DNA of 64,000 bases from a virus (IMGVR_UViG_3300046490_000065:30629-94628), one strand, 5' to 3'; shown: positions 1,443 through 60,233, counted from the stretch's first letter. Numbers and translations: made by a program. Notes: generated from the letters alone by a model not told the origin.

Positions 1443-3416
1443 CTACCTTCCCTCCCACACCTGGACTGATCCAGTAATCCAAGTGAACGTACTCGGAGAT
1501 GACAGCGTGACGCACACCATCGTTTGCGGAGCCAGCGTGCGCGCCCAACTCGTCAGGGTCGAGTCCGTAAGCTTCGCCACGCTCGACATCGACTCTCCAC
1601 CATTGCTGATATCACTAGCGGACGATGGTCCTGTGTAAGATGCCAACGCCACTGCTTTGACGGTGATTGTAACTGATCCGGCTTGATCCCCTTGCGCTGA
1701 AAACTGATTGATGTACCCACCGAATGGGACCAAGGTGCATCGGGTTGTGGTTCCGGAAAGCGCCGACCCGCCGCCGTCAAACGTGAATGGGATAGTGCGC
1801 CATGGCATATAATTGTTGGCGCTCCAAGTGGAGTCCGTGAGTGCCGTACCGGAAAAGTCTACGTAGTTTGTCTTCTCTATGTTGTTGTGGATCGCAGTAG
1901 AGTCACCGCAGAGGAATGGCCCTAGAGCATCGTACCAACCGTTATCTCCAATGTTCCAGTTGGTCGAATTGGATAACTTTATTCCGCACGAGTAACTGTA
2001 CGTGCAGGACCCAGCGCCGTTGATCGGCGCGCAGCCCTCCAGCGTGTTCCCGCGTATCGTGTTTGAGCGATTGTTGTACGCCGCGCTCTGCGCGTTAGCT
2101 GCCCTGATGATGGGTGGCGTCGTGCTCGTATTTCCCCCAATCACGTAACTGTTCAGGAATTTAGTATCATTGACGTTGCCTACCATGTCGAGGACAATCC
2201 CCATGCGCAGAAAATCCACCGTGTCGATTACGCTGCCGTACCCGCTGAACGGGTCCGTGATCGCTCCGGTAAGTGGGTAAGTTCCGCCGCCTCCCATCTG
2301 GATAGCTGTGTTGCACCCGCTTCCCTCAGCGACCGCCGAAAAGAAACTGGCATGATGGACCAGCAGTTTCGTTCCTGTGGTCAACAGAAACGTGGCGCAG
2401 TCCGTAGCGAAGTCTGCAATCGTCAAGTGATCGAGTTCGAGTGTGCCGATCCCGCTCGTCCAAAACTTCGGTCCCGCACTGTATCGAAGATCCAGGTAAG
2501 ATCCCTTGCTGACAGATGCCACAGAAACCAGCAAGTCATCCCCAGAGGACGCTCCCCCGCCAGATATCCTGATAGGTGGCATCGAATATCCAACCCCACC
2601 GTGGCACGTCACGATTTGAGAGTTTGCCCTAATACCTTTACCGGCATCGATACACAGGTGGCCTCCGTTCGCCGCGCAATACCCAGCAATGGTGGAATTC
2701 AGCCGCGTTGATTCGTCGGTGCCGTCGAGTGCGAACCCGAGCGACGAAGCCAGATCACAATTAGCGCCGCCACCCGAACCTGCTGGCCCCTGCGGGCCAG
2801 TTGCGCCCGTCGCTCCAGCGGCACCTTGCGGTCCTGTCGCGCCAGCAGGGCCAGTAGCCCCGGCCGGACCGGTGGCACCCGTTGGCCCTGGAACGGAGGA
2901 AGCCGCTCCCGTTGCACCAGTAGGACCCTGCGCTCCTGTGGCACCCGTAGCTCCAGTTGCTCCAGTTGCTCCAGTTGACCCCGTTGGACCTGTTGCGCCC
3001 GCTGGTCCAGTAGGACCCGTTGATCCAGTTGCCCCAGTGAACCCGAACGTTGCCCAATAAGTTGGGCTTGTATCTGGTTGATGCCCTGTATTGGATGATG
3101 CAAGAGAGATAAACGTCACTGCTGGAGTACCGTATGACACGACATCTAACGCAGCGTATGTTGTCCCCGCCGCGTACTGTCCACGCGCCACAAACGATCC
3201 GGTGGCTGCCGTAAGGAATCGCCAAGTGTCCGTCGCGGGGCAGTCGTACAACCCAGGATTGGTAGTGCCGGTCCGAAAGAAAACATCACCAGTCGCGGGC
3301 GAGCATTGTGATGGCAGCGCCGCGTTCCACTGGACGTGCCTTGCGATGCCAGAACTGGTCTGCGCCCACAGTCCAACATTGGACGCCAGAATCAAGAATA
3401 CTGTAAGTAGACGCAT
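1443..3416 (-). CDS. Collagen-like fibre with carbohydrate-binding-like repeat and beta-helix-like domain; signal peptide
   Basis: Long G-X-Y run (GATGPTG...), YAALDVVSY...PDTSPTYW motif, Asn/Gly-rich C-terminal half. Confidence 0.7.
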
Positions 3417-3429
3417 CGTGTGGGCTCCT

Positions 3430-3762
3430 TTAGGGAATCAACTCCACATTTACTACACACGTCGCCCCGGAGGCCCGCAGCCACATCGCCCCGACCGGGA
3501 CGTTCATGGCTTCCTTGCTGGCCCGGTACTGGTCATGCAGAAGAAGCTCGTATGACTTCCTGGTCGAAGACACGTTGGCGTCTCCCACGTAGACCGAGTT
3601 GGCCCCGTTTGAACTGTCGGCCTGAAGAGACATCTGGCCGACATTCTGGATGAGCCCGGCGAGGGAAGAGTCTACCGCAACAAGTAACGCCAACAGATTG
3701 TGCGGGTTTGTATCGGATAATGTCAAACTAATTCCATAGTACGCATTCAGAGCGACAGCCAT
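3430..3762 (-). CDS. Hypothetical small virion-type beta protein
   Basis: 110-aa ORF heading the fibre operon; GAGG upstream. Confidence 0.55.
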
Positions 3763-3835
3763 TCAGGACACCTCATTCTGAATCATACCCCCATAGACCT
3801 TTCAAATCAACGTGGTGTAGGGTATACTGGGGCCG

Positions 3836-4690
3836 ATGGCGGAACTACCCGATTCCAAAGCAAGGGCATCCTGCGACCTCGATGGGGTGATCACGGTGGG
3901 ACCGGGCAAGACTCCCTACGACTTTGCCCCCGTGCGAACTGGTGCCCGCGATTTCCTCCGCACCCTCCACGAGCGCTACGAAGAAGTCATCATTCACACG
4001 GCCCGGCCGGTCGATGCGGCCAAGAACTACCTGCGGCAGAACGGTTTGTTGAAGTACGTGGCGGACGTCACCAACACGAAGCTCCCATCCAAGGTCTACA
4101 TCGACGACAGGGCGGTGGCGTTCACTGGGGACTTCGAAAAGACCCTGGAAGAGGTCGAGGACTTCCGGCCGTACTGGGCAAAGTCCGCGTCCGACGTTGG
4201 ACTAGATGATGCCTCCACCCAGTTCGACCTGCCGCCGGACCTTGCGGCCAAGGTGATCTCCATGGGGAAGAATGTCCCAGACTCTATGCTCCACGGTAAG
4301 GGTCGTGAGGAGCACCCTCACATTACCGTGCTCTATGGGATCGAGGACGAGACGCCGGACAAGTTGGCCGCCGCTCTCAAAAACTTCGGCCGCGTCCGAG
4401 CCCGGCTTGGCGCCACGAGCTTCTTCCGGGTTCAAAAGAAGGGGTTCGACGTCGTGAAGCTAACCGTCGCGTCAGAGGACTTGAAGCGGTTGCGCAAAGC
4501 GGTGGAAGCGGCGTCTAAGTTCCATACGGATTTCCCGGACTACGTGCCCCACGCGACGATCGCTTATACGAAGCTAGGCAGCGGAGAGAAATTCTCTGGA
4601 GATCGCACGTTGGCCGGCGAGGAATGCGTCTTCGACGCCCTTACGTTCTACGGATCGAATGGAGAACGGACGAGGATACTCCTGACCTAG
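3836..4690 (+). CDS. HAD-family phosphatase fused to 2H phosphoesterase (Acb1/T4 gp57B-like)
   Basis: DLDGV, HTAR, K...YIDDR HAD motifs; two HxT motifs PHITVLYG and YVPHATIAY; TATACT at 3823-3828. Confidence 0.8.
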   Translation: MAELPDSKARASCDLDGVITVGPGKTPYDFAPVRTGARDFLRTLHERYEEVIIHTARPVDAAKNYLRQNGLLKYVADVTNTKLPSKVYIDDRAVAFTGDFEKTLEEVEDFRPYWAKSASDVGLDDASTQFDLPPDLAAKVISMGKNVPDSMLHGKGREEHPHITVLYGIEDETPDKLAAALKNFGRVRARLGATSFFRVQKKGFDVVKLTVASEDLKRLRKAVEAASKFHTDFPDYVPHATIAYTKLGSGEKFSGDRTLAGEECVFDALTFYGSNGERTRILLT

Positions 4691-5041: not shown

Positions 5042-5320
5042 ATGAAGATTAAAGTTTCCGTAGAGCGCCTCCCGTTCTGGGTTTGGTTATGCCGGTTTGC
5101 CTACCGTCATGCGGCCAAACGAAGCTCTGGTATCCCCACCGGTCTACCGGGCCATCGGGATCCCGAGAGCCGGTGTGACCAGTACTTCCCTGTGAAGGAA
5201 CCGAGTGGTAAAGGTCCGTGCGGGGGCGACGGGCACTACTTGTGCCGTGATTGCGAATGGCTATCAGCCGAGCGTATCGCTGAGTTCGATGGAAATTTGG
5301 AGGAGTTCTATGGCCGGTAG
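5042..5320 (+). CDS. Cys/His-rich hypothetical protein
   Basis: C...CGGDGHYLCRDC motif; abuts the initiator gene. Confidence 0.5.
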   Translation: MKIKVSVERLPFWVWLCRFAYRHAAKRSSGIPTGLPGHRDPESRCDQYFPVKEPSGKGPCGGDGHYLCRDCEWLSAERIAEFDGNLEEFYGR

Positions 5321-6584
5321 CGAAAGTTGCATTTATCATCCAGAAAGGGACCAGTTTCTAATCATCCGACGCCATTATGTGGAGATGTTCGGAGGTGACG
5401 TTGACCTAGCTGCATTGCTCGCCTTATTCGAGTTCTGGACGAATGGGGAGTTGGATCAGTTTGCCAAGCGGAGAGAGCAAGGAATCCCGTGGGTGACGGT
5501 GGCCATGCCAGTCATCGAACACTGGATGATGAACATCTGTGGACGTCGGAAGATCCAGGACAAATTGGCGCTCTTGGACAAGTGGGGACTTCTCCGGTCA
5601 AACACCCCTGGATGCCAAACTTCCAAGAGCTACCTGCTGAATATAGATGGCTTAAACCAACTCGTCCACTCTGGGGTTAAAGTGGACGAGTCCTTCATCG
5701 GCAATTTTGCCGATGGGGATGCTGCAATCACAGGGTCAAGTAAAGAGGTGATCGGCAAATCTGCCGATCAGAGTCAAGAGGTGAGTAAAGAGGTGATCGG
5801 CAAAAACGACCGAGCTTATGCATTTTCTGCCGATCAGAACGACGATGTATCATTATTGTGTTTAAAGAAAGAAGAAAAGAAAGAAGAAGAGGAACACAAC
5901 TCACCCTCTTTGGTTCCTTCGGAACCTGAAAACCAAAGTCAAAACCCGGATGTTCCTCCCGCCGCCGGCCGTCCAATGTTGGACGGGGACGAGACCCAGG
6001 AATCGGCCCGACCCGGCAAGCGGTCCTGGAAACGCCCAAAGCCAGAACGACCCCACGGGTTCTCCGATCGTATGCGCCAGCTTCGCGAGGGTGCCCACAA
6101 TCAAGCAGCAGACGGGGTAGAGCGGCTTATGACGCCTTCTCGCGTGGTGACCAGCGCTCCGGAGACCCCGATAGCTCCTGGGGCATCCTACGCTCAAGAG
6201 GAGACATTCCCCGTGAGGTGGAATCGGCTGGTACCGGCGCGGCCGGTGGACGCCGGGCTTCTGGCCCCAAATCCGAAGGCGTACCGGGAGCAGGTATTCG
6301 CCCAAAGGTTCGACGAGATCTGCCAAAAGGCCAGCGCTCTTATCGCGGCTGGCGCTGACGTGCAGTTCGGGTTTCTGTTGAGCACCGACCGAGGAACGGA
6401 GCAATACCGGTGGCAACAACTCCTGGCGGGCCAACTGGACTGGATGAAGCCGAGGGCCAACGGGAGCGTCAAGGAAGTGAAGAAGCCGGTAGATGGAGTG
6501 GCGATAGCCGCGCAGATGCGCAAGGAACGATTGGAAAGGGAGGCAAAGGAACGTGCCGCAGAAGTCAACCAAGACACCCACTGA
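5310..6584 (+). CDS. Phage replication initiator (lambda O-like organisation)
   Basis: GGAGGAG then ATG at 5310; winged-helix-like N-terminus, internal iterons, upstream of DnaB. Confidence 0.7.
   Translation: MAGSESCIYHPERDQFLIIRRHYVEMFGGDVDLAALLALFEFWTNGELDQFAKRREQGIPWVTVAMPVIEHWMMNICGRRKIQDKLALLDKWGLLRSNTPGCQTSKSYLLNIDGLNQLVHSGVKVDESFIGNFADGDAAITGSSKEVIGKSADQSQEVSKEVIGKNDRAYAFSADQNDDVSLLCLKKEEKKEEEEHNSPSLVPSEPENQSQNPDVPPAAGRPMLDGDETQESARPGKRSWKRPKPERPHGFSDRMRQLREGAHNQAADGVERLMTPSRVVTSAPETPIAPGASYAQEETFPVRWNRLVPARPVDAGLLAPNPKAYREQVFAQRFDEICQKASALIAAGADVQFGFLLSTDRGTEQYRWQQLLAGQLDWMKPRANGSVKEVKKPVDGVAIAAQMRKERLEREAKERAAEVNQDTH
5697..5890. repeat. Putative replication origin: iterons plus A-rich tract inside the initiator gene
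   Basis: 21-bp direct repeat AGTAAAGAGGTGATCGGCAAA at 5739 and 5784; inverted ATCGGCA/TGCCGAT pairs at 5697-5714 and 5749-5770; purine tract 5864-5890. Confidence 0.65.
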
Positions 6585-8271: not shown

Positions 8272-8569
8272 TCCGTGTTCGTGCTGCAAGAAGACTAACC
8301 AGTTTTGCCGTTGCACCCGCGAAGTTTGTGGCAAGTGCCACCAGTGTTCAGTCCACTGCGAGTGCTTCAACCCAACGTTCAGTCCAACGTTGGACTCAGT
8401 GCGTGAGCCGGAAGGCGACCGTGGCATCTGCCGGGCGCCAGAGTGCCGAGCGGTGATCTGGTGGCAGGTTACCGCCAAAGGGAAGCGTACGCCGGTCAAC
8501 GCCGATGGATCGCCACACTGGGCGGATTGTCCGGCGGCTAAGTCATTTTCGAAAAGGAGAACGAAGTGA
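8255..8569 (+). CDS. Cys-rich zinc-binding hypothetical protein
   Basis: Multiple CxxC pairs; GKRTPVNADGSPHWADC. Confidence 0.6.
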   Translation: MTKTTSPCSCCKKTNQFCRCTREVCGKCHQCSVHCECFNPTFSPTLDSVREPEGDRGICRAPECRAVIWWQVTAKGKRTPVNADGSPHWADCPAAKSFSKRRTK

Positions 8570-10972: not shown

Positions 10973-11460
10973 AACTCAGCATGGCAGAGCGCATAACGGG
11001 ACTTGAGATCCTGGAGATCCCCCGGATCGGCAAGAAGATCGGGACGGCCGTCACCTACGCTGCCTACGATGACGGGGTTGAGGTGATCCGCCGCACGGAG
11101 TCCGGACACTCCGCCACATTGTCGGCCGTGGTGGAGGTGCTCTACAAGAGGACCAGCCGTCGAGTGTTCGAGGAACAAAGTTTCTTGTGCTTCGTTTGCG
11201 GGCGGCTGCGCCCACTTCAAGCGGACCACATCCACCCACGGGCGCGTGGACGGTGTGACCAGCGATGGAACTTGCGTGGGGTATGTGCCGAAGACCATCA
11301 ACTCATAACAGACAACAAGCTGGTGGACCCGCAGCCTCATCCGAAGGTGCTGTCGGCCGTCCAGCGGCATGGGTGGACCTGGGAGCCGGATTCCAATGTT
11401 GTTGGCTGGCACCAACTGATCGAGAGTCCAACGTTGGACGCGGTGGAGGCAACGGCTTGA
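10948..11460 (+). CDS. HNH endonuclease
   Basis: CFVC...ADHIHPRARG...NLRGVCAEDH. Confidence 0.8.
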   Translation: MEQRGYVLKLSMAERITGLEILEIPRIGKKIGTAVTYAAYDDGVEVIRRTESGHSATLSAVVEVLYKRTSRRVFEEQSFLCFVCGRLRPLQADHIHPRARGRCDQRWNLRGVCAEDHQLITDNKLVDPQPHPKVLSAVQRHGWTWEPDSNVVGWHQLIESPTLDAVEATA

Positions 11461-13243: not shown

Positions 13244-15146
13244 GCTCACCGTACGGCTTTCCCAGCGTATTCCCCGGCTGGATCGTAACCGTCTTGTACC
13301 CTTTGGCCTGACACTGCCGGATCACGTCAAGCACCTGTGTCTCAAGATCCCCCTGCCCACCGATCTTCTTCGTCCACTTTAGGCCGACACCTGGAACTTC
13401 CACGAACAGAGACTTCGGAATCCCTTTGGCCGTTAGGCCCTTGACGATGCCTTCGCTGATCTCTGTTGGCGGTGGAACCGGCGGCTGGCCCGGTTTGGCC
13501 TTGGGCGCGGGAGCGGCCGGCTTCGCAGTCTTCTTCGGCGGCACAGCGGACTTCTTCTTGACAGTAGTCCCCGTAGGTTTGGCTGGTGGTTCGGGAATAG
13601 GTTTTACCGGCTCGGCGGCAGCGGCCGGCGGAGCAGACGGCGGATCCGGTGGCGGAGCGGGGGACGTAGGCGCAGGTTCACTTGGCGCGGCGGCGGCCGG
13701 CGGCTTAACCTCCGGCGGTCCAACATTGGACGGCGGCGGAGGTCCCGGTGGTTGGGCGGCCGGAGTGGCTGGTGCTGCCGATTTTCCTTTGACCAGTTCT
13801 TCGAATGGGGCCAAGTACTCCTGCATCTTCCGGAACTCGTCCATCACTGCGGCCTTCTTCTCCGGGGCCAACTCGTTGACGTTTACCCCGTCGAGCTTCC
13901 TTAGGAAACCATCCTGCATCTTGCTGATGAAGTTCTGGACTACCTCAGGCGGTTGTTGCTTGGCTAGTTCGAGTTGTTTCTCAATTGGAATATCCGGCTG
14001 TCCACTTAGGCCGGAAGGGTCCGGCGGCCCAGGTAGCTGCAATGGCTTCTTGGCGCGGAACCCCTCTACGATCTTTTCCGTCCCTTTGGTGTCGGGATGG
14101 GCCTGTTGTAACCGCTTGATCTCCGCTTCTGCCGCGCTTCGAGACTTGGCGGATATCCCTTTCTCATTCAACTGATCCTGTAGTTCTCCTATCCTTCGCT
14201 CGATCGCTGCTGGAGTCTTAGGTTCCGCCGCAAGTGGGGGTGGTGATGGCTTGCCGGACTTGCTCCTGGCATCCACCGCCTTCTCCGCATGTGAGGCGTT
14301 CGTACGCTCAGTTACCGGGAACTCTTTCCCTCCAACCTTGACGGACTCCTCTCCCCTTGTGAAGGTCTCTCCTTTGCCCATCTCGCCTTGCTTTAACTTC
14401 AACAGGCGCTCCCGAAGGATTGGTTCGATCTGCGCCTTGATCTTCGCCCGGTTGTAAGCCTTAGCGCCAACGATCAGACCTGCCAAGTCGCCAGCCACCT
14501 GAGCGTATTCCTCTGGCAATCCCATCCCCTTCAGGCTGTCGGTTACTACCGACTGGGACACTGAGGCGGTAGTGGCCACCTTAGCGAAGGTCAGGGGGTT
14601 CGTGGCGGCGGCTCCCATCATGATCGGAGTGGCCGCATCCATAGTGCCCTCTACGATCTTATGCGCGGCCCTAAATTTCTCCTTTGTGGTGTCGGAGGTC
14701 ATACCCTCGATACCTTGGGCCAATTGCCCCACTCCGTGAGTCGTTTTATCCAGAATCGACTGTGGGATATCGGCTGGGTGCTCACGCGCGTATTGGCTTG
14801 GCTGCTGGAAACTCATCTCCCACGGCAGCGCTGGCTTCCGTGGCTCCGGAGGTCCCGGCAAGGCCCCCAATTTTCCCATCCCAGGTACGGGTGGCTCCGC
14901 AGGTTTGGACGTGGATTTAGGCGGTCCAACGTTGGACGGAGGAGGCGTCGATGGAGGCGACGGTGGCTGGCCCGGCTTCACGCCGAACTTAGATCGTGCC
15001 GTCGCTAGGACTTTTTTCTGTACCTCTGGAGGAGCGTTCTTGAAATTCGAGTTCACGGAAGCCAGCGAGGAGACCTGCTCTTTTTCTGGCTTGTCCCAAA
15101 ACCCCGTCTGCGATACGATCTCTTGAGCGCTCTGTGTCTGTGGCAT
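13209..15146 (-). CDS. Pro-rich putative ejection/internal virion protein
   Basis: Follows the other ejection-type genes; N-terminal helical motif resembles that of 15150-18545. Confidence 0.6.
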   Translation of the reverse strand: MPQTQSAQEIVSQTGFWDKPEKEQVSSLASVNSNFKNAPPEVQKKVLATARSKFGVKPGQPPSPPSTPPPSNVGPPKSTSKPAEPPVPGMGKLGALPGPPEPRKPALPWEMSFQQPSQYAREHPADIPQSILDKTTHGVGQLAQGIEGMTSDTTKEKFRAAHKIVEGTMDAATPIMMGAAATNPLTFAKVATTASVSQSVVTDSLKGMGLPEEYAQVAGDLAGLIVGAKAYNRAKIKAQIEPILRERLLKLKQGEMGKGETFTRGEESVKVGGKEFPVTERTNASHAEKAVDARSKSGKPSPPPLAAEPKTPAAIERRIGELQDQLNEKGISAKSRSAAEAEIKRLQQAHPDTKGTEKIVEGFRAKKPLQLPGPPDPSGLSGQPDIPIEKQLELAKQQPPEVVQNFISKMQDGFLRKLDGVNVNELAPEKKAAVMDEFRKMQEYLAPFEELVKGKSAAPATPAAQPPGPPPPSNVGPPEVKPPAAAAPSEPAPTSPAPPPDPPSAPPAAAAEPVKPIPEPPAKPTGTTVKKKSAVPPKKTAKPAAPAPKAKPGQPPVPPPTEISEGIVKGLTAKGIPKSLFVEVPGVGLKWTKKIGGQGDLETQVLDVIRQCQAKGYKTVTIQPGNTLGKPYGEPISFQANPADE

Positions 15147-21293: not shown

Positions 21294-21880
21294 TTATTCC
21301 CCCAACTCTCTTCCGTCAGCACAGACAAGTACCCGGCACACTCCACTCCCCGCCAGCAACACAACCCAGGGATCGGCCCGAACGAGGTGAACCCAGATGC
21401 CTTCATGAACCGCACAGCCGGGACGTTCTTCTCCGGGGTTATCCCGTAGATGGCATCCATTGAGCATTCATTGAAGGCGAAGTCTAGCAGCGCTTTCCCC
21501 ATGTCGAGAGTGATACCCATCGCTTGGTATTCCCGCCAGAACACCTCACCCACGTCCGCGTAACGGCAACCGTTCCTGGTCTTGATGTTGTGAAGCCAGC
21601 CCAACCCGGCCAGCGTGATTACTGGCGGCGCGTCCAATGTTGGACCGGGAGTTTCTAAAAAGCACCCGGCCACAATGATGTTGGGTTGTTCGCACCATTC
21701 GAGAAACCCTCGAAGATCAGGGGGTTTATCCCAGAACATCATGGGCAACAACCCCTCCTGTTCCATCCGCAGGTAAGCTACAGCCAGCAGGCTTTGTCCG
21801 ATTTCGGATCGGATCTTGATCGCTCGTTGTTCCGCTACCATATCAGACACGAGTGTACCCCTTAACACTCTACAACGCAA
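21290..21880 (-). CDS. GNAT-family acetyltransferase (virion-morphogenesis associated)
   Basis: GITPEKNVPAVRFMKASGF motif; sits before the ejection genes. Confidence 0.7.
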   Translation of the reverse strand: MRCRVLRGTLVSDMVAEQRAIKIRSEIGQSLLAVAYLRMEQEGLLPMMFWDKPPDLRGFLEWCEQPNIIVAGCFLETPGPTLDAPPVITLAGLGWLHNIKTRNGCRYADVGEVFWREYQAMGITLDMGKALLDFAFNECSMDAIYGITPEKNVPAVRFMKASGFTSFGPIPGLCCWRGVECAGYLSVLTEESWGNK

Positions 21881-29788: not shown

Positions 29789-29828
29789 CGTCCAACATTG
29801 GACGATTCATTGTACCGCGTTGAAAGGA

Positions 29829-32295: not shown

Positions 32296-32349
32296 ATGCG
32301 TCCAACGTTGGACGGGGCGATGTCCGCCGGGCGCCGCCCCTCCATCGGG

Positions 32350-37741: not shown

Positions 37742-37930
37742 TGCTTCTCCTGTAGCGTCCAATGTTGGACCCGGTGGCGCTGTATCCGTCTGCCATCATT
37801 ACCGGCCTGAGTTCCTCTCACCGTGCCGAACCTTTAGAGGGAGCGACCCACCCAAAGGGGGTTGGGGTCCACGTCCCGCTTGCGCGGCACGGCGGAAACT
37901 GGTCTCCGTTGCCCCACCGAATCCAAGTAA

Positions 37931-37959: not shown

Positions 37960-37965
37960 GAGGAA

Positions 37966-42305: not shown

Positions 42306-42314
42306 AAGCTCCTC

Positions 42315-43259
42315 CTACTGGACCGCCCCGGCTTTCTTGTCGAAGTACTCCTGGGTGGCCACACGGGCGATACCCTTGCCCAGCGGGATCTTGCTGGTGT
42401 CCAGATCGCCATCGGCCTTCTTGGGCATCCTGGCTTCGGCCCGGCGCATCAACGCTCCCTGGCGCCGGCCGCCGCCGCTGTCGCCGCCGTCCACGGGGCT
42501 CCGGTTCTTGCCGACTTCCTGGAGAGCCTTCTTGGTCCCTTCGGCCACGCCACGATCGTACTCGGCCTTCTTCTCGGCGGCCGTCTGGGCGCTGGACTTC
42601 TCGGTAAACTTGGTGGCGAAGAGGTCGTTGTACGCTTCGATAGGATCGATGTCCTGCCGAACGCCGGACTTCCTGAACCGGTCTTCAGCCATGACCTTCA
42701 TGTGCTCGATGACCTTATCCATCGGGAGCACTTCGCCGAAATCCTTCTCGTGTTGGCTGACCTTCGGGGTCAAAGCGGAGAACACCTTCTCGAATCGGCT
42801 GGTCAGGCCGTTGACCTTGGAGTCCAATGTTGGACCGACCTTCTCGTTCACGAGCTTCGTCATCTGGGCATCGAGGTCGGAGTTGCGAACCAACCCGGCC
42901 GCGTCCAGGGTTTCCTTCACGATCTGCTTGATTTCGTCGGGTGTCACTTCGGCGCTCCTTCCATTTTGCAGATCGGCTACAGTGGCCGCTGCCTCGGCGA
43001 GTGCTGTTTGCAACCGCTCGTGTTCTGTTTGCCATGCCGGCCAATCGTTGGCCCGGAATTTCCGCCAGTCTTCCAGTTCCTTGACCGGCGCTTCGAAGTC
43101 GTTCTCGTAGGTGGGGTGTAGGGACTTCAATCGCTCCCGCACCGGCTTGACCTTTTCCCCAAGCTCGAAGTATTCCTTGAGCGTCGGGAACTTGGCCGCC
43201 ATCTCGTTCAGCTTCACCTTGTCGTCGTCGGCTGCTAACTGCAAAAGGTTGTCAAACAT
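42315..43259 (-). CDS. Capsid scaffolding protein
   Basis: Charged helical protein upstream of the capsid gene. Confidence 0.7.
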   Translation of the reverse strand: MFDNLLQLAADDDKVKLNEMAAKFPTLKEYFELGEKVKPVRERLKSLHPTYENDFEAPVKELEDWRKFRANDWPAWQTEHERLQTALAEAAATVADLQNGRSAEVTPDEIKQIVKETLDAAGLVRNSDLDAQMTKLVNEKVGPTLDSKVNGLTSRFEKVFSALTPKVSQHEKDFGEVLPMDKVIEHMKVMAEDRFRKSGVRQDIDPIEAYNDLFATKFTEKSSAQTAAEKKAEYDRGVAEGTKKALQEVGKNRSPVDGGDSGGGRRQGALMRRAEARMPKKADGDLDTSKIPLGKGIARVATQEYFDKKAGAVQ

Positions 43260-44626: not shown

Positions 44627-45082
44627 TCAACCAGCGGCAGTAGCGTCCAACGTTGGACCGGCCTTATCGTAAAGAACGAGCGGAAATTTCTGCCGCTCAA
44701 CGACATGGGGGAACCGAGCGCATGCGTAAGCGAACGCCTCCTGAGATTCCGGATATCCAAACCCGCGCACGTAGAATCCTGAGTTGCAGGCTCCGCGCGT
44801 ATCCGCTGAGCGGTCCCACCAGCAGAAGGCATACCAGAACGCTTTCTCCCCACCGCAGGTAAAATAGACTCGGCCATCCGGAAGATCTCGGACCTTTCGG
44901 TTGCGGAGTAACGTGGCGTCCATGAGACCGTCATCCCAAGGGAGATCCGGCGGGCGGTCATCGTACAAGTGATGTCCGCTGACGTCATGGAGGAAGTGCC
45001 CAGCATAGCGCCAGCAACCAAAGTACAGGGCCAGCAACCCCAATCGCTTTCCCGCTTCAATCGATTCTTGCAAGGTGACCAT
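44627..45082 (-). CDS. Phage hypothetical protein
   Basis: YFGCW..AGHFL...WWDRSADTRGACNSGF motif. Confidence 0.65.
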   Translation of the reverse strand: MVTLQESIEAGKRLGLLALYFGCWRYAGHFLHDVSGHHLYDDRPPDLPWDDGLMDATLLRNRKVRDLPDGRVYFTCGGEKAFWYAFCWWDRSADTRGACNSGFYVRGFGYPESQEAFAYACARFPHVVERQKFPLVLYDKAGPTLDATAAG

Positions 45083-50234: not shown

Positions 50235-50848
50235 TCCACCCGTCCAACATTGGACGCCGTTTCCTCAAACAGGCTACTCGCGTCTTCCTCGGCCGGCGGC
50301 GCCAGCTTCTTCTCGATCAGGTCCGCCAGTTCCGTCCCGGTGTTGAACTTCGCACCCAGGATCTCGGCCAGCCGTTCGGCCGCCACCTCGGTCATGAGTA
50401 CGTGGTGCGGCCGGGGGTGAAGCTCGTACACCCACTCGTTCTCCTGCACCGCGTCCACCACTTCCTGCATGAGCGCATCGACCGTCCGCTCCTGCGTGCG
50501 GGCCAGTTCCTCGTACGCCGGGTAGTTGGCCGGATCGATCAGCACGGTCACCCGGTGCTTCCCGTCCACCATTCCCGCCACGTCGCTGATGTAGGGGATC
50601 AGTTCCTCGGCGTTGCTCAATTGGACGCCCGTGGAATCCAGGACCAACTTCACATCATCCGGCGGGAACAGGACGCCGCCGGTCGCGATCTGGGTCAGGA
50701 CGTCCTCGGTCATGTCGCGGATCTTCTGGGAGGGCGATGCGTCCACCCCTTCCGGCATCTCCATCATGTCCGTCAGGATTGGGACGTGCGCCTCTTTAAG
50801 TTCGATTTCAAGGTTGTACTTCACTGTGTCGGTTGGCTTCTTTGCCAT
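50231..50848 (-). CDS. Acidic hypothetical protein, possible RHH-like segment
   Basis: AGGAG RBS; promoter TTGACT(50899)-17-TACAGT. Confidence 0.65.
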   Translation of the reverse strand: MAKKPTDTVKYNLEIELKEAHVPILTDMMEMPEGVDASPSQKIRDMTEDVLTQIATGGVLFPPDDVKLVLDSTGVQLSNAEELIPYISDVAGMVDGKHRVTVLIDPANYPAYEELARTQERTVDALMQEVVDAVQENEWVYELHPRPHHVLMTEVAAERLAEILGAKFNTGTELADLIEKKLAPPAEEDASSLFEETASNVGRVE

Positions 50849-52486: not shown

Positions 52487-52520
52487 GACTTATTTTCCGG
52501 TCCAATGTTGGACGCGTCGA

Positions 52521-52721: not shown

Positions 52722-52789
52722 AGTTCCTCCTGGGTGCAGTATGATCCTATTCCGTATGATTGCCTGTGCAGATCTGTACAGTGTGGGAG

Positions 52790-52879: not shown

Positions 52880-52882
52880 TCA

Positions 52883-52955
52883 TGGAGCACCGCCTCGGAA
52901 TTGAACCGAGTTCTACCGGGTTGCAGCCGGTGCGCTCTCCGTTTGCTTGCGGTGC
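52883..52955 (-). tRNA. tRNA-Cys(GCA)
   Basis: Loop CTGCAAC, U73, CCA. Confidence 0.85.
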
Positions 52956-53377
52956 TGAACTAAATCCGTGATCAACTTTTCCAAACGCCCATCCATGATC
53001 GGTGCCAGCGGGTACTGCTTGTCCAGCCGCTCGTCGGTCACCCGCTGTTCAGGGAAGTGGTATGTCCTGATCCGGCCTTCTCCAAACGCTGCTTGGCGCC
53101 GGACATTCTCTTCCGGCTCGCCGACCTTCCCCATTCTCCTGGCGCATTCAAGTTTGTGCCAGTCCTTGAACTGCTTCGTCGCAACCATCCGGAGGAACGC
53201 TGTCCGCTTGTTCGTGGTTTGGCTCCGCTCGTCGGCGGAGTACCCGACCGCCCCGCTCGGCGGGTGCGTCATGCGGATCGCCGTGTGGCTTCGGTTGGCG
53301 TGTTGGCCGCCCTTGCCACCGGACGTCAGGTCCTCGATCTTGAAATCCTTCGCCGTCAATGAAAACAGAAGCGTCAT
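52913..53377 (-). CDS. Minimal class-I release factor homolog (GGQ peptidyl-tRNA hydrolase domain)
   Basis: SGGKGGQHAN...AIRMTHPPSG...ERSQ..NK..A...RIRTYHFPEQRVTD; AGGAGG RBS; 154 aa. Confidence 0.9.
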   Translation of the reverse strand: MTLLFSLTAKDFKIEDLTSGGKGGQHANRSHTAIRMTHPPSGAVGYSADERSQTTNKRTAFLRMVATKQFKDWHKLECARRMGKVGEPEENVRRQAAFGEGRIRTYHFPEQRVTDERLDKQYPLAPIMDGRLEKLITDLVQHRKQTESAPAATR

Positions 53378-53989: not shown

Positions 53990-54252
53990 GAGGATTTCTT
54001 CTTATCGTCTCGCGCCTGCTCTACCATGGCCTGCGCTCGTCCCTCGACGTTGCCCTGGCTCCTGGCCGCTTCCTTGGTGGCCGCCAGCAATTCATCCATC
54101 CGACTGTTGATCTGAAGGTGAACCGCGTCGATCTTCCTGCTGAGGATGATCCCCACGAAAGACAGGACCGCCGCAAAGATGGCCGGGGCTCCCGCCAGAA
54201 TCACCAACCACACCGTGAACTGCTGCGCTGGAATCATATTCATCGTCCCCAA
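53986..54252 (-). CDS. Small single-TM protein
   Basis: Hydrophobic N-terminus then VHLQINSRMDELL. Confidence 0.6.
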   Translation of the reverse strand: MGTMNMIPAQQFTVWLVILAGAPAIFAAVLSFVGIILSRKIDAVHLQINSRMDELLAATKEAARSQGNVEGRAQAMVEQARDDKKKSS

Positions 54253-56720: not shown

Positions 56721-57191
56721 CTACTCTTCTACGAGTACCGCATCTGGCGTGGGTTCGAACGAGATCACATCGAAGCTGGCTGGGATCGCCTTGCGCTGCT
56801 TCTCCTCTTCTTCGAGGATTCGCTGGATATCCTCGAACGACCTTGGCCCATCCGAAGCCCGGTGCGCGTGGCTTTCGGCCGTGTTGTTGTTCTGCTGGTT
56901 GACGTTAACCACCAAGCCTCTGTCCTTCGCGCCGGTCAATCCGAAGATTTCTGCGATGAGCTTGTTAGCTTGCATGTCGTTTAGGTGTGTACTCCGACGA
57001 AGGCTATTGATCATATCAGGGATGAGGATTGGCGCCACGGCCGCGAGGATGGCCTTCTGGTACGTGCCTTTACCAAGACTCTTGGCAGTGACGCTGCGGG
57101 TTGCGATCTTGTCGGGTAGCTTGATGTCCTTGATAGGTTTGCGGCCGTCCAATGTTGGACTGGCCGGCTTCTTTTTGTGCGAGGTGGCCAT
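56721..57191 (-). CDS. Putative terminase small subunit
   Basis: Directly upstream of terL; VNVNQQNNN beta tail. Confidence 0.6.
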   Translation of the reverse strand: MATSHKKKPASPTLDGRKPIKDIKLPDKIATRSVTAKSLGKGTYQKAILAAVAPILIPDMINSLRRSTHLNDMQANKLIAEIFGLTGAKDRGLVVNVNQQNNNTAESHAHRASDGPRSFEDIQRILEEEEKQRKAIPASFDVISFEPTPDAVLVEE

Positions 57192-57774: not shown

Positions 57775-58405
57775 TCCACGCCACGCAGCACATGATCATA
57801 ATTGCCATGAACGCCTTCTGACAGGTGGGGCCGTCGTACCCTATCCTGGCCAATGGGGCTATCAGCGAGTGGGACAAAATCAGTATAGAGAACACCCACG
57901 AGTGGCGGACTAAGCTTCGTGGTTCAGGCTTACGGTCCCTTGACGGAGTGGCAAAGAACGTCACCACCACCCCACACACGATGGCCACCCCCAGCCACAC
58001 AAACTCCCTCGCGTAGACAAACCATCCAAACCACGTGTCGTACTCGCCCATGCTCCACGAGAACCCGACCAATCCCACCGCTACCACAGGAGCCCATATT
58101 CGCAAACAGAACCGCTCGAAGCTGTGCCCGAAGCTGGTGCGCTTGACCAGGATCTCCACCGCTGCGGAGACCGCGCCGGCCACCACCAGTAGCTCCATGG
58201 GAGCCCAGATGGTATGCCACCACCACACATCCGACGCCGGGTGAGGGAAACCGAAGGACGCTATGACCGACTGTAGGCATGATGCCGTGAGGAACGCCAT
58301 GAACGCCGGGGCTCCCCTCCACCAGCGCTTTTTCCACAAAATCCCCAGGGCGGCCATTTGTGATCCGACGAACATCAGGTGCAACAAACGCTCCAGCAGG
58401 TTCAT
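57662..58405 (-). CDS. Polytopic membrane protein
   Basis: About 7 hydrophobic segments. Confidence 0.6.
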   Translation of the reverse strand: MNLLERLLHLMFVGSQMAALGILWKKRWWRGAPAFMAFLTASCLQSVIASFGFPHPASDVWWWHTIWAPMELLVVAGAVSAAVEILVKRTSFGHSFERFCLRIWAPVVAVGLVGFSWSMGEYDTWFGWFVYAREFVWLGVAIVCGVVVTFFATPSRDRKPEPRSLVRHSWVFSILILSHSLIAPLARIGYDGPTCQKAFMAIMIMCCVAWITLCCPESGKVLSSDLSSGRTRNAPTPREKPFPAGSR

Positions 58406-58410
58406 AGTAT

Positions 58411-59439
58411 TTACTTTACCCTGAGTTGCGCCTCTCTGGGGACGAGCGCACTGTTGCTCTGCCGGGATGATGCCAAGACCCGCTGTAAGATTTCGTCGCG
58501 GCTGCGATCAGCATGCTCGGTATGAGTTGTGGCGAAGGCCCTCTGCCCAGGCTGTAGGTCGATGGCTGCCGCCTCACCAACCCCCAGTTTAGGGTCGATT
58601 TTACCGCCAGCGGCGGCGCCGGCCGCGATCCTTGCCCGGATCATGTTCATGTCGGGCTCTGCCCCCACTGCTACCGGGTCCTGCATCCCACCACTGCGGT
58701 CGCGGTAGATCCCCACCAACTGGGCCACGATGCTCTTGAGACCCGCCTCCACGTCGATGACCTCATCGTATAGGCTGAACGGGTGCTGGGCCACCAACGT
58801 GATCTCTCCGCCCTCGCCAACACGAGGGTCCTTGTACGTCAGAGATACACCGCCCAACCCCTGCTTGTTGATCACGTTCCGTTTGGCCGTGATCCGGAAC
58901 GGGCTACCGTCCGCCCGCTCGATATCAAACGGGATCTCTTCGGGAGTGGTCTCCAGGATCTTGTCGATTAGCTCGGCTTCGTCCCAGTATTGCTTCTGCG
59001 GAGCATTGGACCCTGGACGTTTTATGGCCCTCTTCATCGACGCCTTTATTGTCCCCGGTCGAACCGAGACATCGGCGGGTTTCGTCTGGTTGAACTCCGG
59101 ATCTGTTGGCATCACGATGAGGCTCTTGGCCGCTTGGCCCACGGGAGTCATCGCCTTGCTCGGTGGTGGCGGGGTCAGGAAGTGCGGACGCCCGTCCTCC
59201 ACCTCGGCGGCCGGCGCATTGGACCGGTGATCCCACACCGGCTCGGGAGATTGTGTCCGAAGCGCTTCCGGCACGGACGCGATGCCCGATTCCTCGAAGT
59301 GCATATCGTGAACAAGTTCGACCGCATCCACGATGCGCTCGGTTAGGTCGATCGGGTCAATGGCCACGCCGCGCGCCACGGTGTTCGAGATTGCCTTGTG
59401 GATGTACTTGGCCATCCGGTCTTTCAAGTCCTGCGTCAT
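58411..59439 (-). CDS. Hypothetical protein
   Basis: 342 aa, overlapping operon. Confidence 0.7.
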   Translation of the reverse strand: MTQDLKDRMAKYIHKAISNTVARGVAIDPIDLTERIVDAVELVHDMHFEESGIASVPEALRTQSPEPVWDHRSNAPAAEVEDGRPHFLTPPPPSKAMTPVGQAAKSLIVMPTDPEFNQTKPADVSVRPGTIKASMKRAIKRPGSNAPQKQYWDEAELIDKILETTPEEIPFDIERADGSPFRITAKRNVINKQGLGGVSLTYKDPRVGEGGEITLVAQHPFSLYDEVIDVEAGLKSIVAQLVGIYRDRSGGMQDPVAVGAEPDMNMIRARIAAGAAAGGKIDPKLGVGEAAAIDLQPGQRAFATTHTEHADRSRDEILQRVLASSRQSNSALVPREAQLRVK

Positions 59440-60233
59440 ACATCCCCCTTCATTCCCTTGCCGGTGTTCGGTTGGTAGACTTCGGCCCCACGAACCCGCT
59501 CCACGGCCGCCTCGCGCGTGAGTCCGTATCGCCGCTGAAGCGCGAGGATCTTCTCCTCCTGTGCGGAAGTCTCATCATCCATCGTCTGGATCGAACCGCC
59601 ATTGAAAAGGACCTGCTGGAATTCCTTCTGCTGCTTGGCGAACTTGCCGAAGTCCAACACCACGGCGTCAAGCGCCAGGATCTTCTGCGCGTCCTGCTTC
59701 TTGATGAATAACTGGAGGTCGTCCAACTTGGAGATGACGCCTTGGAGATCGGCATGGAGGAGGAGTTCGGAATCAATCGCCTTCACGGCCAGTGCCGTAG
59801 CGATCTCTTCCAGGCGGCCGTCGATGCCCTTCCATTGTTCGAGTGCTTCATCAAACTGCTTCCGGCTTGCCAACTCGTGGCGTATCTCTGCCATCTTATC
59901 CAACATTGGACCAGTGGCCGTGGTAGACTCCATCATCGCAATGGCGAACACATGGAACTCACCCTGCAATGCGGCAGTGCGATCCACTTGATCCGTCAGC
60001 GCGTTACTGATATTCAGCAACATGCCGGACTGCATTCCCATCTCTGGATTCGGCCGGCGCAATCCTTCGTTCACCGATGCCAGCGCCACCAGGATCTCAC
60101 TGAGCCGCTGAACCGTCAGGTCTGCTTTACTGTGATGGTTCGGTAAATGGTGCAGCACCCACCGGAAACCCAGGATGATACCCGCAAAGCTGGCGAGCAT
60201 CCCCAGAATTACAAACACGTCTTTGATATTCAT
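59436..60233 (-). CDS. N-terminal TM + coiled-coil protein
   Basis: AAGGA RBS; helical. Confidence 0.65.
   Translation of the reverse strand: MNIKDVFVILGMLASFAGIILGFRWVLHHLPNHHSKADLTVQRLSEILVALASVNEGLRRPNPEMGMQSGMLLNISNALTDQVDRTAALQGEFHVFAIAMMESTTATGPMLDKMAEIRHELASRKQFDEALEQWKGIDGRLEEIATALAVKAIDSELLLHADLQGVISKLDDLQLFIKKQDAQKILALDAVVLDFGKFAKQQKEFQQVLFNGGSIQTMDDETSAQEEKILALQRRYGLTREAAVERVRGAEVYQPNTGKGMKGDV

What the first reader, a model, noticed from the sequence alone, without database searches (positions are those of the whole stretch)
3371..59911. Genome-wide array of a 14-bp palindrome GTCCAAYRTTGGAC written into unrelated genes
Seen: 15 exact copies (starts 3371, 5971, 8382, 11426, 13718, 14924, 21632, 29790, 32300, 37757, 42822, 44645, 50242, 52500, 57147) plus 1-mismatch copies at 4189 and 59898, spaced 1.2-8.2 kb apart. 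A uniform-base estimate gives about 0.001 copies per 64 kb. Eleven exact copies lie in coding sequence, in two reading frames (PTLD/PMLD or SNVG), in unrelated proteins on both strands, mostly in termini or disordered linkers. Four are intergenic (next to the ATG at 29788, near an RBS, beside a promoter, between convergent genes). None was seen in terL, portal, capsid, nozzle or dnaB. The centre is CG (5 copies) or CA/TG (10), never TA. Inference: selection acts on the DNA, marking binding sites for a dimeric protein along the whole genome. Established analogies are parS/ParB, Noc-NBS, SlmA-SBS, MatP-matS and mycobacteriophage stoperators. Possible roles are segregation, compaction or shielding, membrane tethering, or global silencing.
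Basis: partly seen in the sequence, partly recalled or inferred. Interest (0 to 1): 0.92.

Follow-up and report, generated by a model that had tools for sequence, protein, structure and literature searches.

The report
Phage-wide ParB-type docking site array
A 94.6-kb uncultured phage writes one 14-letter DNA palindrome about every 3 kb along its whole genome, even inside genes, most likely as docking sites for its own partner-less ParB/KorB-type DNA-binding protein; I found no paper describing or explaining such an array in a phage like this one.

Summary
All 15 exact and 2 one-mismatch copies sit at the stated coordinates (shuffles expect 0.03). The whole 94,628-bp phage genome holds 25 exact, 4 one-mismatch and no two-mismatch copies, spaced more evenly than chance (P<5e-5).

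Only the inverted arrangement GTCCAA-N2-TTGGAC is enriched. Three complete relatives share only 35-60% core protein identity, yet each keeps 23-29 copies of a lineage-specific variant (GTNCNA-CG-TNGNAC). This skeleton resembles parS. One site inside the helicase gene is orthologous in all three and carries each lineage's own variant.

The best candidate reader is a conserved orphan protein at window 61303-62196 (-). Fold, profile and PHROG searches place it in the ParB/Noc/KorB family. It has no ParA partner and no ParA-binding motif. In four relatives the palindrome lies between the -10 box and the start codon of this gene, but not in this phage. Most other sites are not at promoters.

The hairpin, host-signal and T-dioxygenase readings were tested and not supported. 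Binding and function are inferred, not shown.

This scan has already noted similar "evenly spaced ParB-type palindrome arrays" in at least ten other phage genomes. The same word also occurs as promoter-proximal clusters in HMO-2011-type roseophages, including cultured CRP-1, which have no detectable ParB.

The parts
3371..3384 (.). site, exact (centre CA), in the first codons of the 657-aa collagen-repeat gene 1443-3416(-); reads SNVG
4189..4202 (.). site, one mismatch (GTCCGACGTTGGAC), inside the 284-aa LigT/2H-phosphoesterase-like gene 3836-4690(+); reads SDVG
5971..5984 (.). site, exact (TG), mid-gene in the 459-aa ORF 5205-6584(+); reads PMLD
8382..8395 (.). site, exact (CG), intergenic between dnaB (6916-8271) and thyX (8566-9240)
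11426..11439 (.). site, exact (CG), in the 376-aa resolvase/endonuclease-like gene 11265-12395(+); reads SNVG
13718..13731 (.). site, exact (CA), in the 645-aa ORF 13209-15146(-), in a proline-rich linker PPPPSNVGPP
14924..14937 (.). site, exact (CG), same 645-aa ORF, in a second proline-rich linker PPPSNVGPP
21632..21645 (.). site, exact (TG), in the 196-aa ORF 21290-21880(-); reads PTLD; an orthologous site is present in relative G041
29790..29803 (.). site, exact (CA), ends 2 nt upstream of the ATG of the 1016-aa gene 26738-29788(-)
32300..32313 (.). site, exact (CG), between the divergent ORFs 31216-32292(-) and 32296-32556(+)
37757..37770 (.). site, exact (TG), at the junction of ORFs 37418-37762(-) and 37762-38067(+)
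42822..42835 (.). site, exact (TG), in ORF 42073-43110(+) (gene call uncertain); reads SNVG
44645..44658 (.). site, exact (CG), at the C-terminal end of ORF 44627-45082(-); reads PTLD
50242..50255 (.). site, exact (CA), in the last codons of the conserved 222-aa gene 50231-50899(-); reads SNVG; G041 has a decayed SNVA at the same place
52500..52513 (.). site, exact (TG), in ORF 52441-52971(+) (gene call uncertain)
57147..57160 (.). site, exact (TG), about 430 nt upstream of the terL start (56717); G040 has a site at a similar place upstream of its terL
59898..59911 (.). site, one mismatch (ATCCAACATTGGAC), in the 265-aa ORF 59436-60233(-); reads PMLD
61303..62196 (-). candidate reader: an orphan ParB/Noc/KorB-family protein with a ParB N-domain (ADGFHR, GENGHHG), an HTH, a disordered linker and a C-terminal domain. 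The ORF runs to 62268; the likely start is the GTG at 62196, giving the MTP... start seen in all homologues
62221..62249 (-). sigma70-like promoter (TTGACT-17-TAnnnT type) of the ParB-like gene. In this phage it has no palindrome downstream, unlike four relatives

Best explanation
The 14-bp palindromes are parS/OB-like docking sites for the phage's own orphan ParB/KorB-family protein (window 61303-62196, minus strand). A dimer would read the two GTCCAA half-sites through its helix-turn-helix domains. By analogy with ParB, Noc and KorB it would then close as a nucleotide-dependent clamp and slide away. About 29 sites spaced roughly 3.3 kb apart would put the whole phage chromosome within reach.

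Shown: the array exists, it is under selection as DNA, and it is ancient. The protein belongs to the ParB fold family and is conserved in the clade. In four relatives one site is an operator at this gene's promoter.

Inferred: that this protein binds the sites, that it binds a nucleotide and slides, and what the coating is for. My preferred purpose is long-range control of gene timing or silencing, and/or organisation of replicating phage DNA. Plasmid-style segregation is unlikely because there is no ParA.
For: 1. The array is real and tightly kept: 25 exact, 4 one-mismatch and 0 two-mismatch copies, against 0.03 expected.
2. Only the inverted GTCCAA-N2-TTGGAC arrangement is enriched. All other spacings and orientations score 0 or 1, and solo half-sites are at background.
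3. Spacing is more even than random in G000 (P<5e-5) and in G040 (P=0.01).
4. Complete relatives G040 and G041, with 35-60% identity in core proteins, keep 23 and 24 copies of the variants GT[C/A/T]C[C/A]ACGT[G/T]G[G/T/A]AC and GT[S/T/A]CAACGTTG[S/T]AC.
5. The helicase-gene site is orthologous in all three. It is 14/14 identical between G000 and G041 while the flanks match at 19/72. In G040 it reads GTCCCACGTGGGAT, that lineage's own variant, at the cost of an Asn-to-His change.
6. The skeleton GT...ACGT...AC is shared with canonical parS (8/14 positions for G000, 10/14 for G040; read directly from the sequences).
7. The candidate matches ParB/Noc/KorB: PHROG 1033 'ParB-like partition protein' at 9e-13; profile against PDB sequences, M. 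xanthus ParB 5e-7 and Noc 1e-5; Foldseek, B. subtilis ParB-CDP, Noc-NBS, Caulobacter ParB and KorB at E 2e-7 to 6e-5 over 150-180 columns covering the N-domain and HTH. Most of its 62 homologues carry PF02195.
8. The candidate is conserved in G040, G041, G034, G024 and G037.
9. In G040, G041, G044 and G034 the palindrome lies 8-17 nt downstream of the -10 box of this gene's sigma70-type promoter.
10. G042, a more distant capsid relative, has no copy of the palindrome and no ParB-like gene in the 76 kb held.
Against: This phage's own ParB-like promoter has no palindrome.

The CTP-pocket motifs are altered: GERR becomes GFHR and ENLQR becomes ENGHH. Nucleotide binding and sliding are therefore uncertain. 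This phage's own protein scores only 11.5 bits against PF02195.

I found no clear covariation between recognition-helix residues and motif variant.

The identical word forms promoter-proximal clusters in HMO-2011-type roseophages, which have no detectable ParB N-domain. It also forms a triple operator beside a CI-type repressor gene in a Pseudoalteromonas contig. Other protein families can therefore read this word.

Co-occurrence of the gene and the array within one clade is not phylogenetically independent evidence. No binding experiment exists.
Confidence: 0.6

Rival explanations
1. The sites are read by a different dimeric DNA-binding protein, either an unidentified phage repressor (stoperator-like or CI-like) or a host factor. 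The ParB-like gene would then be just one regulated target.
For: The same word is used elsewhere without a detectable ParB. HMO-2011-type roseophages, including cultured CRP-1, have 3-7 copies clustered in the early region. About 57% of the copies outside the gp01-family gene lie 17-26 nt upstream of an RBS and ATG. A Pseudoalteromonas contig has three copies 61 bp apart between a Phage_CI_repr gene and the next operon. G000's own ParB promoter lacks the site. Many small core proteins of the clade have no assigned function.
Against: No other sequence-specific DNA-binding protein was found among the core genes. The motif skeleton is parS-like. Motif variants differ between lineages, as expected for a co-evolving phage-encoded reader. 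No bacterial genome carries the word densely: most have single copies, and the maximum was 5 per 4.6 Mb. Only 16,384 different 14-bp palindromes exist, so reuse of one word by unrelated systems can be coincidence.
Confidence: 0.2
2. The sites are targets of a DNA-cutting, nicking or base-modifying enzyme. Candidates are one of the phage's several HNH or EndoVII nucleases, a methyltransferase acting on the central CpG, or a ParB-guided modifier such as the ParB-dependent T-dioxygenases. On this reading the sites are not mere docking sites.
For: The phage encodes several HNH endonucleases, including three paralogues. Phage ParB-like proteins are known activators of DNA T-dioxygenases (PMC13229309). 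In this phage the centre is CG, TG or CA and never TA, the pattern left by single C-to-T transitions at a CpG. Absence of TA has P of about 0.05 under independence.
Against: No Tet_JBP dioxygenase was found in G000, G040, G041, G034 or G024. A palindromic nick site would be cut on both strands, giving about 29 double-strand breaks. The operator position at the ParB promoter in four relatives points to binding, not cutting. In G040 and G041 the centre is invariably CG.
Confidence: 0.1
3. The palindrome works as a nucleic-acid structure: an RNA hairpin in transcripts, or a DNA cruciform or hairpin, for example a processing, priming or promoter hairpin.
For: The word can form a 5-bp hairpin with a 4-nt loop (-4.9 kcal/mol), and the variable centre falls in the loop. 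In HMO-type phages the word lies in 5' leaders just upstream of the RBS and shows a TG:CA sense-strand bias of 44:15.
Against: In relatives the two half-sites vary independently, with no compensatory changes. G040 has 8 symmetric sites against 9.8 expected. G041 has 3 against 9.1, and its commonest form, GTCCAACGTTGCAC, does not fold at all (dG 0). A loop would not be restricted to CG/TG/CA. The 5-bp stem is weak.
Confidence: 0.03
4. The word is an artefact (adapter or assembly) or a small mobile repeat that has spread through the genome.
For: None found.
Against: Flanks of the copies are unrelated. There is no longer repeat unit. Copies sit in frame inside genes. Independent assemblies of relatives from other samples carry the array.
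Confidence: 0.01

Closest known systems
KorB and its 12 OB operators on IncP plasmid RK2 (PMC11790492; PMC13584720; PMC13768133)
   Same: A ParB-CTPase-family protein with an HTH. A short palindrome is dispersed over the whole replicon at about one per 4-5 kb. Some sites lie at promoters, including autoregulation, and many lie far from any promoter. In KorB's published mechanism the clamp loads at OB, slides, and silences at a distance. KorB is among the top fold matches.
   Different: KorB has a ParA partner (IncC) and also segregates the plasmid. It needs the clamp-locking partners KorA and TrbA. Here there is no ParA, no ParA-binding motif and no identified locking partner. The replicon is a phage with no integrase, the CTP motifs are altered, and the site sequence differs.
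Canonical ParB-parS and Noc-NBS
   Same: The protein fold and domain order, N-domain followed by HTH. A 14-16-bp palindrome shares GT...ACGT...AC with parS. Noc is likewise an orphan ParB that reads tens of dispersed sites.
   Different: parS sites are few and clustered near the origin. Noc sites are about one per 60 kb on a chromosome. Here the density is one per 3.3-4.3 kb across a whole virus genome, evenly spaced, and no membrane-targeting helix or ParA is evident.
17-bp dyad repeat of Cluster O mycobacteriophages (TGTTCGGNNNCCGAACA, more than 30 copies; PMC4351075)
   Same: An invariant inverted repeat scattered through a phage genome, with about one third of copies inside genes and no tie to transcription direction. 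Those phages also encode a ParB-like domain protein, a beta clamp and an AAA ATPase, as this phage does.
   Different: The sequence and spacer differ. The authors call the function unknown and do not link the repeat to ParB. The phage lineage and host are unrelated.
Stoperators of Cluster A mycobacteriophages (L5 gp71; as summarised in PMC4351075)
   Same: Roughly 24-30 high-fidelity sites spread over a phage genome, including inside transcribed regions, and read by one phage protein.
   Different: Stoperators are asymmetric, oriented with transcription, and serve a prophage immunity repressor. Here the sites are palindromic and no integrase or lysogeny module was found.
Other ParB-like regulators on mobile elements: BisD of ICEclc (PMC12409273), VirB of Shigella, and orphan phage ParBs surveyed in PMC12704722
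   Same: Orphan ParB-fold proteins on mobile elements that act on gene expression rather than segregation. The survey notes many phage orphans of unknown role.
   Different: None is reported with a genome-wide, evenly spaced site array in a phage.

Membership tests
ParB/Noc/KorB (ParB-CTPase fold) DNA-binding proteins | ParB N-terminal domain fold | tested here: met
   Foldseek top hits are ParB-CDP 6sdk, Noc 7ol9/7nfu, Caulobacter ParB 7bm8/6t1f and KorB 8qa9 (E 2e-7 to 6e-5, prob 1.0). Profile against PDB sequences gives 5e-7. PHROG 1033 scores 9e-13. The protein's own score against PF02195 is only 11.5 bits, but most homologues carry PF02195.
ParB/Noc/KorB (ParB-CTPase fold) DNA-binding proteins | Helix-turn-helix DNA-binding domain directly after the N-domain | tested here: met
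   Alignments to Noc, Caulobacter ParB and KorB span 150-180 columns, through model helices 142-202. The segment IAxLIGCSPSLVxxxRRGET is conserved.
ParB/Noc/KorB (ParB-CTPase fold) DNA-binding proteins | CTP-binding motifs (QPR, GERRxRA, ENLQR) | tested here: inconclusive
   Q50, R52, G98, R101 and N133 are invariant. However, GERR reads GFHR and ENLQR reads ENGHH, so the catalytic Glu and one Arg are missing. Nucleotide binding was not testable.
ParB/Noc/KorB (ParB-CTPase fold) DNA-binding proteins | Specific binding to a 13-16-bp palindrome | not testable with these tools
   Only indirect evidence: a parS-like skeleton, an operator at the gene's own promoter in four relatives, and co-occurrence.
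ParABS partition system | Adjacent ParA ATPase and an N-terminal ParA-binding motif in ParB | tested here: not met
   No PF13614 match in the genome. No [LFI]G[KR]G[LFI] motif in the first 60 residues of any of 62 homologues.
KorB-OB global regulon | Dispersed sites, some promoter-proximal (including the gene's own promoter) and many distal | tested here: met
   In G040, 3 of 23 sites, and in G041, 2 of 24, lie 8-17 nt downstream of a -10 box, against a background of 0.7%. One of these is the ParB-like promoter. All other sites are distal. In G000, 0 of 29 are promoter-proximal.
KorB-OB global regulon | Clamp-locking partner (KorA/TrbA-like) | not tested
   No candidate was identified. Small core proteins remain unannotated.
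Cluster A stoperators | Asymmetric site oriented with transcription; temperate phage with an immunity repressor | tested here: not met
   The site is palindromic. The TG/CA centre shows no consistent orientation with gene direction. No integrase was found.
ParB-dependent T-dioxygenase modification systems (PMC13229309) | A Tet/JBP-type 5mYOX dioxygenase encoded with the ParB | tested here: not met
   No PF12851 match at E<=0.1 in G000, G040, G041, G034 or G024.

The most novel reading that the evidence does not exclude
Large phages with no sign of lysogeny carry a chromatin-like system. An orphan ParB-family clamp loads at evenly spaced, high-fidelity palindromes and coats the whole replicating phage chromosome, either to time or silence genes at long range or to gather phage DNA into a separate body. 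Together with the other arrays this scan has noted, this would be a widespread and so far undescribed layer of phage genome organisation.
Probability: 0.35. Interest if true: 0.85.

Novelty: new variant of a known kind. Interest (0 to 1): 0.7.

Why it matters
Orphan ParB-fold proteins are common in phages, but their DNA targets and roles are unknown (PMC12704722). The only comparable phage repeat I found in print, in Cluster O mycobacteriophages, is described as of unknown function (PMC4351075).

This finding offers a concrete, testable pair: one 14-bp word and one 297-residue protein. It comes with lineage-specific variants, which allow natural specificity-swap experiments.

If the protein loads and slides like KorB, long-range clamp-based regulation or DNA organisation would extend from plasmids to viruses. 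The same word in the cultured roseophage CRP-1 gives a laboratory system for a second, possibly independent, reader.

Tried and rejected
- Nearest cultured relative: blastn of a 7.4-kb structural segment against 50,697 phage records gave no match. tblastn of the capsid found only 22-26% identity, to Bradyrhizobium, Stenotrophomonas and Myxococcus phages. tblastn of the ParB-like protein found only two distant uncultured records.
- Literature: the exact word appears in none of 8.4 million papers and preprints.
- Host-signal idea: a scan of 185,579 species genomes returned almost only single copies in unrelated taxa. The five genomes checked in full had 1-5 copies per 3.6-12 Mb.
- A protein shared between this phage and the HMO-2011-type phages: tblastn and phmmer found nothing meaningful. 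A weak reciprocal profile match (E 3e-4 to 4e-3) between the ParB-like linker/C-terminal helix and the HMO gp01-family protein was not upheld by hhalign (6% probability, 31 columns).
- Fold of the HMO gp01-family protein: Foldseek found nothing. In VIA-align the KorB DNA-binding domain ranked first, but only at Z 4.9, rmsd 3.4 A over 87 residues, below the level that can be trusted for helical folds.
- HTH-motif covariation: Cys/Val at the start of the recognition helix seemed to follow A/C at motif position 5, but G044 breaks the pattern.
- Searches of the genome with no hit: ParA, tyrosine integrase, Tet_JBP, canonical parS in G000, G040 and G041.
- Classical-operator reading for all sites: rejected, because 0 of 29 G000 sites lie just downstream of a sigma70-like promoter.
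- A remnant site inside G000's own ParB linker (KKNVG): four mismatches to the word, so treated as chance.
No read-end, expression or dimer test was therefore possible.

Full report
**1. Observation**

One hundred dinucleotide-preserving shuffles gave a mean of 0.03 matches and never more than 1.

The window is the last 64 kb of a 94,628-bp virus record. IMG/VR classes it as linear, and CheckV estimates it as complete. The whole genome has 25 exact copies, 4 with one mismatch and none with two. That sharp fall-off is unusual for ordinary transcription-factor sites.

The hexamer GTCCAA on its own is not special. Of 112 half-sites, 50 lie in full sites and the remaining 62 are at the level of other hexamers of the same base composition. 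No other spacing or orientation of two half-sites occurs more than once. The selected unit is therefore the inverted pair with a 2-bp centre.

Treated as a circle, the 29 intervals have a coefficient of variation of 0.54, against 0.95 for random placement. None of 20,000 simulations was as even. The largest gaps, 6.7 and 8.2 kb, fall over three very long structural genes.

Copies inside ORFs always read SNVG or PTLD/PMLD. They often sit in proline-rich linkers or in the first or last codons of a gene.

**2. What kind of genome this is**

Family searches identify the following genes:
- a major head protein, a portal and a long large terminase;
- DnaB, ThyX, a collagen-repeat protein and a lectin-domain protein;
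- a DNA polymerase III beta clamp, an SF2 helicase and an AAA ATPase;
- a RecT-like annealing protein and two exonucleases;
- a tail fibre and several HNH endonucleases.

No tyrosine integrase and no ParA were found. There is no close cultured relative.

**3. Relatives keep the array, each in its own dialect**

Capsid relatives in IMG/VR were scanned whole and three were fetched. Two are complete genomes. G040 is 96.5 kb with direct terminal repeats. G041 is 103 kb. They share only 35-60% identity with this phage in about 30 core proteins.

Both carry a comparable array:
- G040 has 23 sites of the form GT[C/A/T]C[C/A]ACGT[G/T]G[G/T/A]AC, most commonly GTCCCACGTGGGAC.
- G041 has 24 sites of the form GT[S/T/A]CAACGTTG[S/T]AC.
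- In both, the centre is always CG.
- Spacing is again more even than random in G040 (P=0.01). It is not significantly so in G041.

Further relatives show more variants:
- G044 has GTMCAAYRTTGKAC.
- G043 has the half-sites moved two bases apart (GTCCAAC-AT-GTTGGAC).
- L184, a locus from a 104-kb contig, has looser TCCAMCGTTGGA sites every 1.5-2 kb.
- G042, a more distant capsid relative (44% identity), has no copy in the 76 kb held.

Some sites are orthologous across the three complete genomes. In the helicase gene, G000 and G041 have the identical 14-mer at the aligned position, while the 72 flanking bases match at only 19 positions. G040 has GTCCCACGTGGGAT there, which is its own lineage's word with one mismatch. 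This changes the encoded SNVG to SHVG. A second orthologous pair lies in the 196-aa gene at window 21290-21880.

The array is therefore old and is maintained at the DNA level. Individual sites follow the lineage's preferred word.

**4. Not a hairpin, not a host word, not a mobile repeat**

If pairing between the two arms were the selected feature, changes would be compensatory. They are not. In G040, 8 of 23 sites are symmetric against 9.8 expected from independent half-sites. In G041 only 3 of 24 are symmetric against 9.1 expected, and its commonest form cannot fold at all.

A scan of one genome for each of 185,579 prokaryote species found almost only single copies, scattered over unrelated taxa. 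Five of those genomes checked in full hold 1-5 copies per 3.6-12 Mb. That is two to three orders of magnitude sparser than in the phage.

The flanks of the copies share nothing.

**5. The candidate reader**

I tested that claim.

Evidence on family membership:
- Pfam finds nothing at E 0.01 for either strand, and the minus-strand ORF scores only 11.5 bits against PF02195.
- The minus-strand ORF hits PHROG 1033, 'ParB-like partition protein', at 9e-13.
- It has 62 homologues, most of which carry PF02195.
- As a 21-sequence profile it matches M. xanthus ParB (5e-7), Noc (1e-5), Spo0J and Caulobacter ParB in the PDB.
- An AlphaFold model (mean pLDDT 78) has as its best Foldseek hits B. subtilis ParB-CDP, Noc bound to its site, Caulobacter ParB, M. 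xanthus ParB and KorB. All have probability 1.0 over 150-180 columns, covering the N-domain and the HTH.

Features of the protein:
- The family alignment shows ADGFHR where ParB has GERR, and GENGHHG where ParB has ENLQR. Q50, R52, G98, R101 and N133 are invariant. The pocket is recognisable but altered, so I cannot say which nucleotide it binds, if any.
- None of the 62 homologues has the ParA-binding motif.
- The likely start is the GTG at window 62196, which gives the MTP... start shared by all homologues.
- A library-wide profile search finds about 35 clusters (at 50% identity) with the full-length architecture. It finds 13,575 proteins at E<=1e-10, mostly through the N-domain and HTH.

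**6. Links between the protein and the word**

(a) The gene is conserved in G040, G041, G034, G024 and G037, at E 1e-50 to 1e-63. It was not found in G042, which also lacks the word.

(b) In G040, G041, G044 and G034 the gene has a clear TTGAC(A/T)-17-TAnnnT promoter. The lineage's palindrome begins 8-17 nt downstream of the -10 box, just before the RBS. This is the classic position for autorepression. G000 is the exception: its promoter (window 62221-62249) is followed by a different imperfect dyad that occurs only once in the genome.

(c) The word's skeleton matches canonical parS at 8 of 14 positions in G000 and 10 of 14 in G040.

(d) Apart from those operators, the sites are not promoter elements. 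Among 11-16 strict sigma70-like promoters per genome, the word follows the -10 box in 0 (G000), 3 (G040) and 2 (G041) cases. Most sites have no promoter nearby.

This mixture of a few promoter-proximal sites and many distal ones, about one per 4 kb over the whole replicon, is what KorB's OB sites look like on RK2. There KorB loads as a CTP clamp, slides, and is locked at promoters by KorA or TrbA (PMC11790492, PMC13584720, PMC13768133).

**7. The same word elsewhere: a caution**

An exact-word scan of IMG/VR found more than 115 stretches. Many belong to marine phages of about 55 kb and 40% G+C that share no detectable protein with this phage. These are HMO-2011-type roseophages; blastn matches CRP-345, CRP-1 and HMO-2011.

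In these phages the word forms a local cluster of 3-7 copies within 2-5 kb of the early region. Of the copies outside one conserved gene, 57% lie 17-26 nt upstream of an RBS and ATG. The centre shows a sense-strand bias of TG 44 to CA 15. Cultured phage CRP-1 has four exact copies.

A conserved family of about 200 residues, which includes CRP-1 gp01, sits in or at the head of the cluster in 38 of 44 sequences. Most members carry the word inside their own linker, read as SNVG. The family has no Pfam match and no Foldseek match. Its similarity to the KorB DNA-binding domain (Z 4.9) and to the ParB-like protein is only weak.

Separately, a Pseudoalteromonas contig has three copies 61 bp apart between a CI-type repressor gene and the next operon.

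Only 16,384 different 14-bp palindromes exist. Reuse of one word by unrelated repressor systems is therefore plausible as coincidence. It also shows that proteins other than ParB can read this word, which is why I keep the 'other reader' rival at 0.2.

**8. Other readings tested**

ParB-like proteins in phages can activate T-dioxygenases (PMC13229309), but no Tet/JBP domain is present in five genomes of the clade.

A nicking or cutting role is hard to reconcile with a palindrome and with the operator position.

The centre pattern in G000 is CG 8, TG or CA 17, and TA 0 among the exact copies. This fits single transitions at a CpG being tolerated. Absence of TA is only weakly significant (P about 0.05), and I could not test methylation.

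**9. Comparison with what is known, and novelty**

The closest described system is KorB-OB. The closest described phage phenomenon is the 17-bp dyad repeat of Cluster O mycobacteriophages. Its authors call its function unknown. Those genomes also encode a ParB-like domain protein, a beta clamp and an AAA ATPase (PMC4351075).

A 2025 survey records many orphan phage ParBs without targets (PMC12704722). I found no paper that ties a phage ParB to a genome-wide, evenly spaced site array.

This scan has noted similar arrays in at least ten other phage genomes. Those notes are leads, not evidence.

I file this as a new variant of a known kind: a ParB/KorB-type site system stretched over a whole phage chromosome, without ParA.

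**10. Verdict**

- The reading 'DNA-level docking sites for a dimeric protein' is well supported, at about 0.85.
- The purpose of the array is inferred only.

Noticed in passing
L184:386-401 (104-kb contig of a relative whose ParB-like protein, P0011, is about 50% identical): A perfect 16-bp canonical parS (TGTTTCACGTGAAACA) near the contig start, in addition to that phage's own looser TCCAMCGTTGGA sites. It may be a hook for the host's ParB. G000, G040 and G041 have none within 3 mismatches.
   Followed up: partly
HMO-2011-type roseophage loci, e.g. L030:3715-6747, L080:562-4743, L121:12468-14761; CRP-1 MK613343 at 429, 1059, 2228, 53808: The identical 14-mer forms early-region clusters about 20 nt upstream of start codons. 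A conserved protein of about 200 residues (CRP-1 gp01 family) carries the word inside its own linker as SNVG. This is a possible regulator-operator system in a cultured marine phage, and I found no description of it in the papers searched.
   Followed up: partly
L275:3254-3390 (Pseudoalteromonas sp. 0303, NZ_JABVXF010000030.1): Three copies of GTGTCCAACGTTGGACA at 61-62-bp spacing lie between a Phage_CI_repr-domain gene (2631-3083) and a 196-aa gene. This looks like a classical three-operator immunity region that uses the same word.
   Followed up: partly
G041 (L163-L168) and G042 (L175-L177): G041 has a second, unrelated repeat, AGAGGTTCGCACCGGAGAGG-like, in about 23 copies. G042, which lacks the palindrome, has CAGTAGCGGTGCCCC-like repeats in about 12 copies. 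Neither was examined.
   Followed up: no
L145, L146, L147 (capsid gene of relatives; match spans 1239 nt against 984 nt in others): The major capsid gene of some relatives is about 255 nt longer at the DNA level, with the protein match intact. This is consistent with an intron-like insertion. Another note of this scan proposes a group I intron in a related capsid gene.
   Followed up: no
window 54240-56717 (-) and G041 24438-27725: The large terminase is unusually long: 825 aa here, and an ORF of about 1095 aa in G041 of which only 386 residues align. This suggests an inserted domain or intein-like element.
   Followed up: no
genome 16419-16952(-), 18629-19267(-); window 32788-33282(+): Three paralogous HNH endonuclease genes in this phage correspond to a single copy in each of G040 and G041.
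   Followed up: no
G045 (Solirubrobacterales MAG MFD03346.bin.3.59; L212, L225, L252): Five exact copies, all with a CG centre, in a 4.6-Mb bacterial genome. About 0.07 are expected by chance. It may be a host of related elements or a chromosomal ParB-like system. The context was not examined.
   Followed up: no
window 62203-62221 (-), just downstream of the ParB-like promoter: In place of the palindrome found in relatives, G000 has a unique 19-bp imperfect dyad, CTCTGGATGCCATGGAGAG, that overlaps the RBS. It may be an operator for a different regulator.
   Followed up: partly
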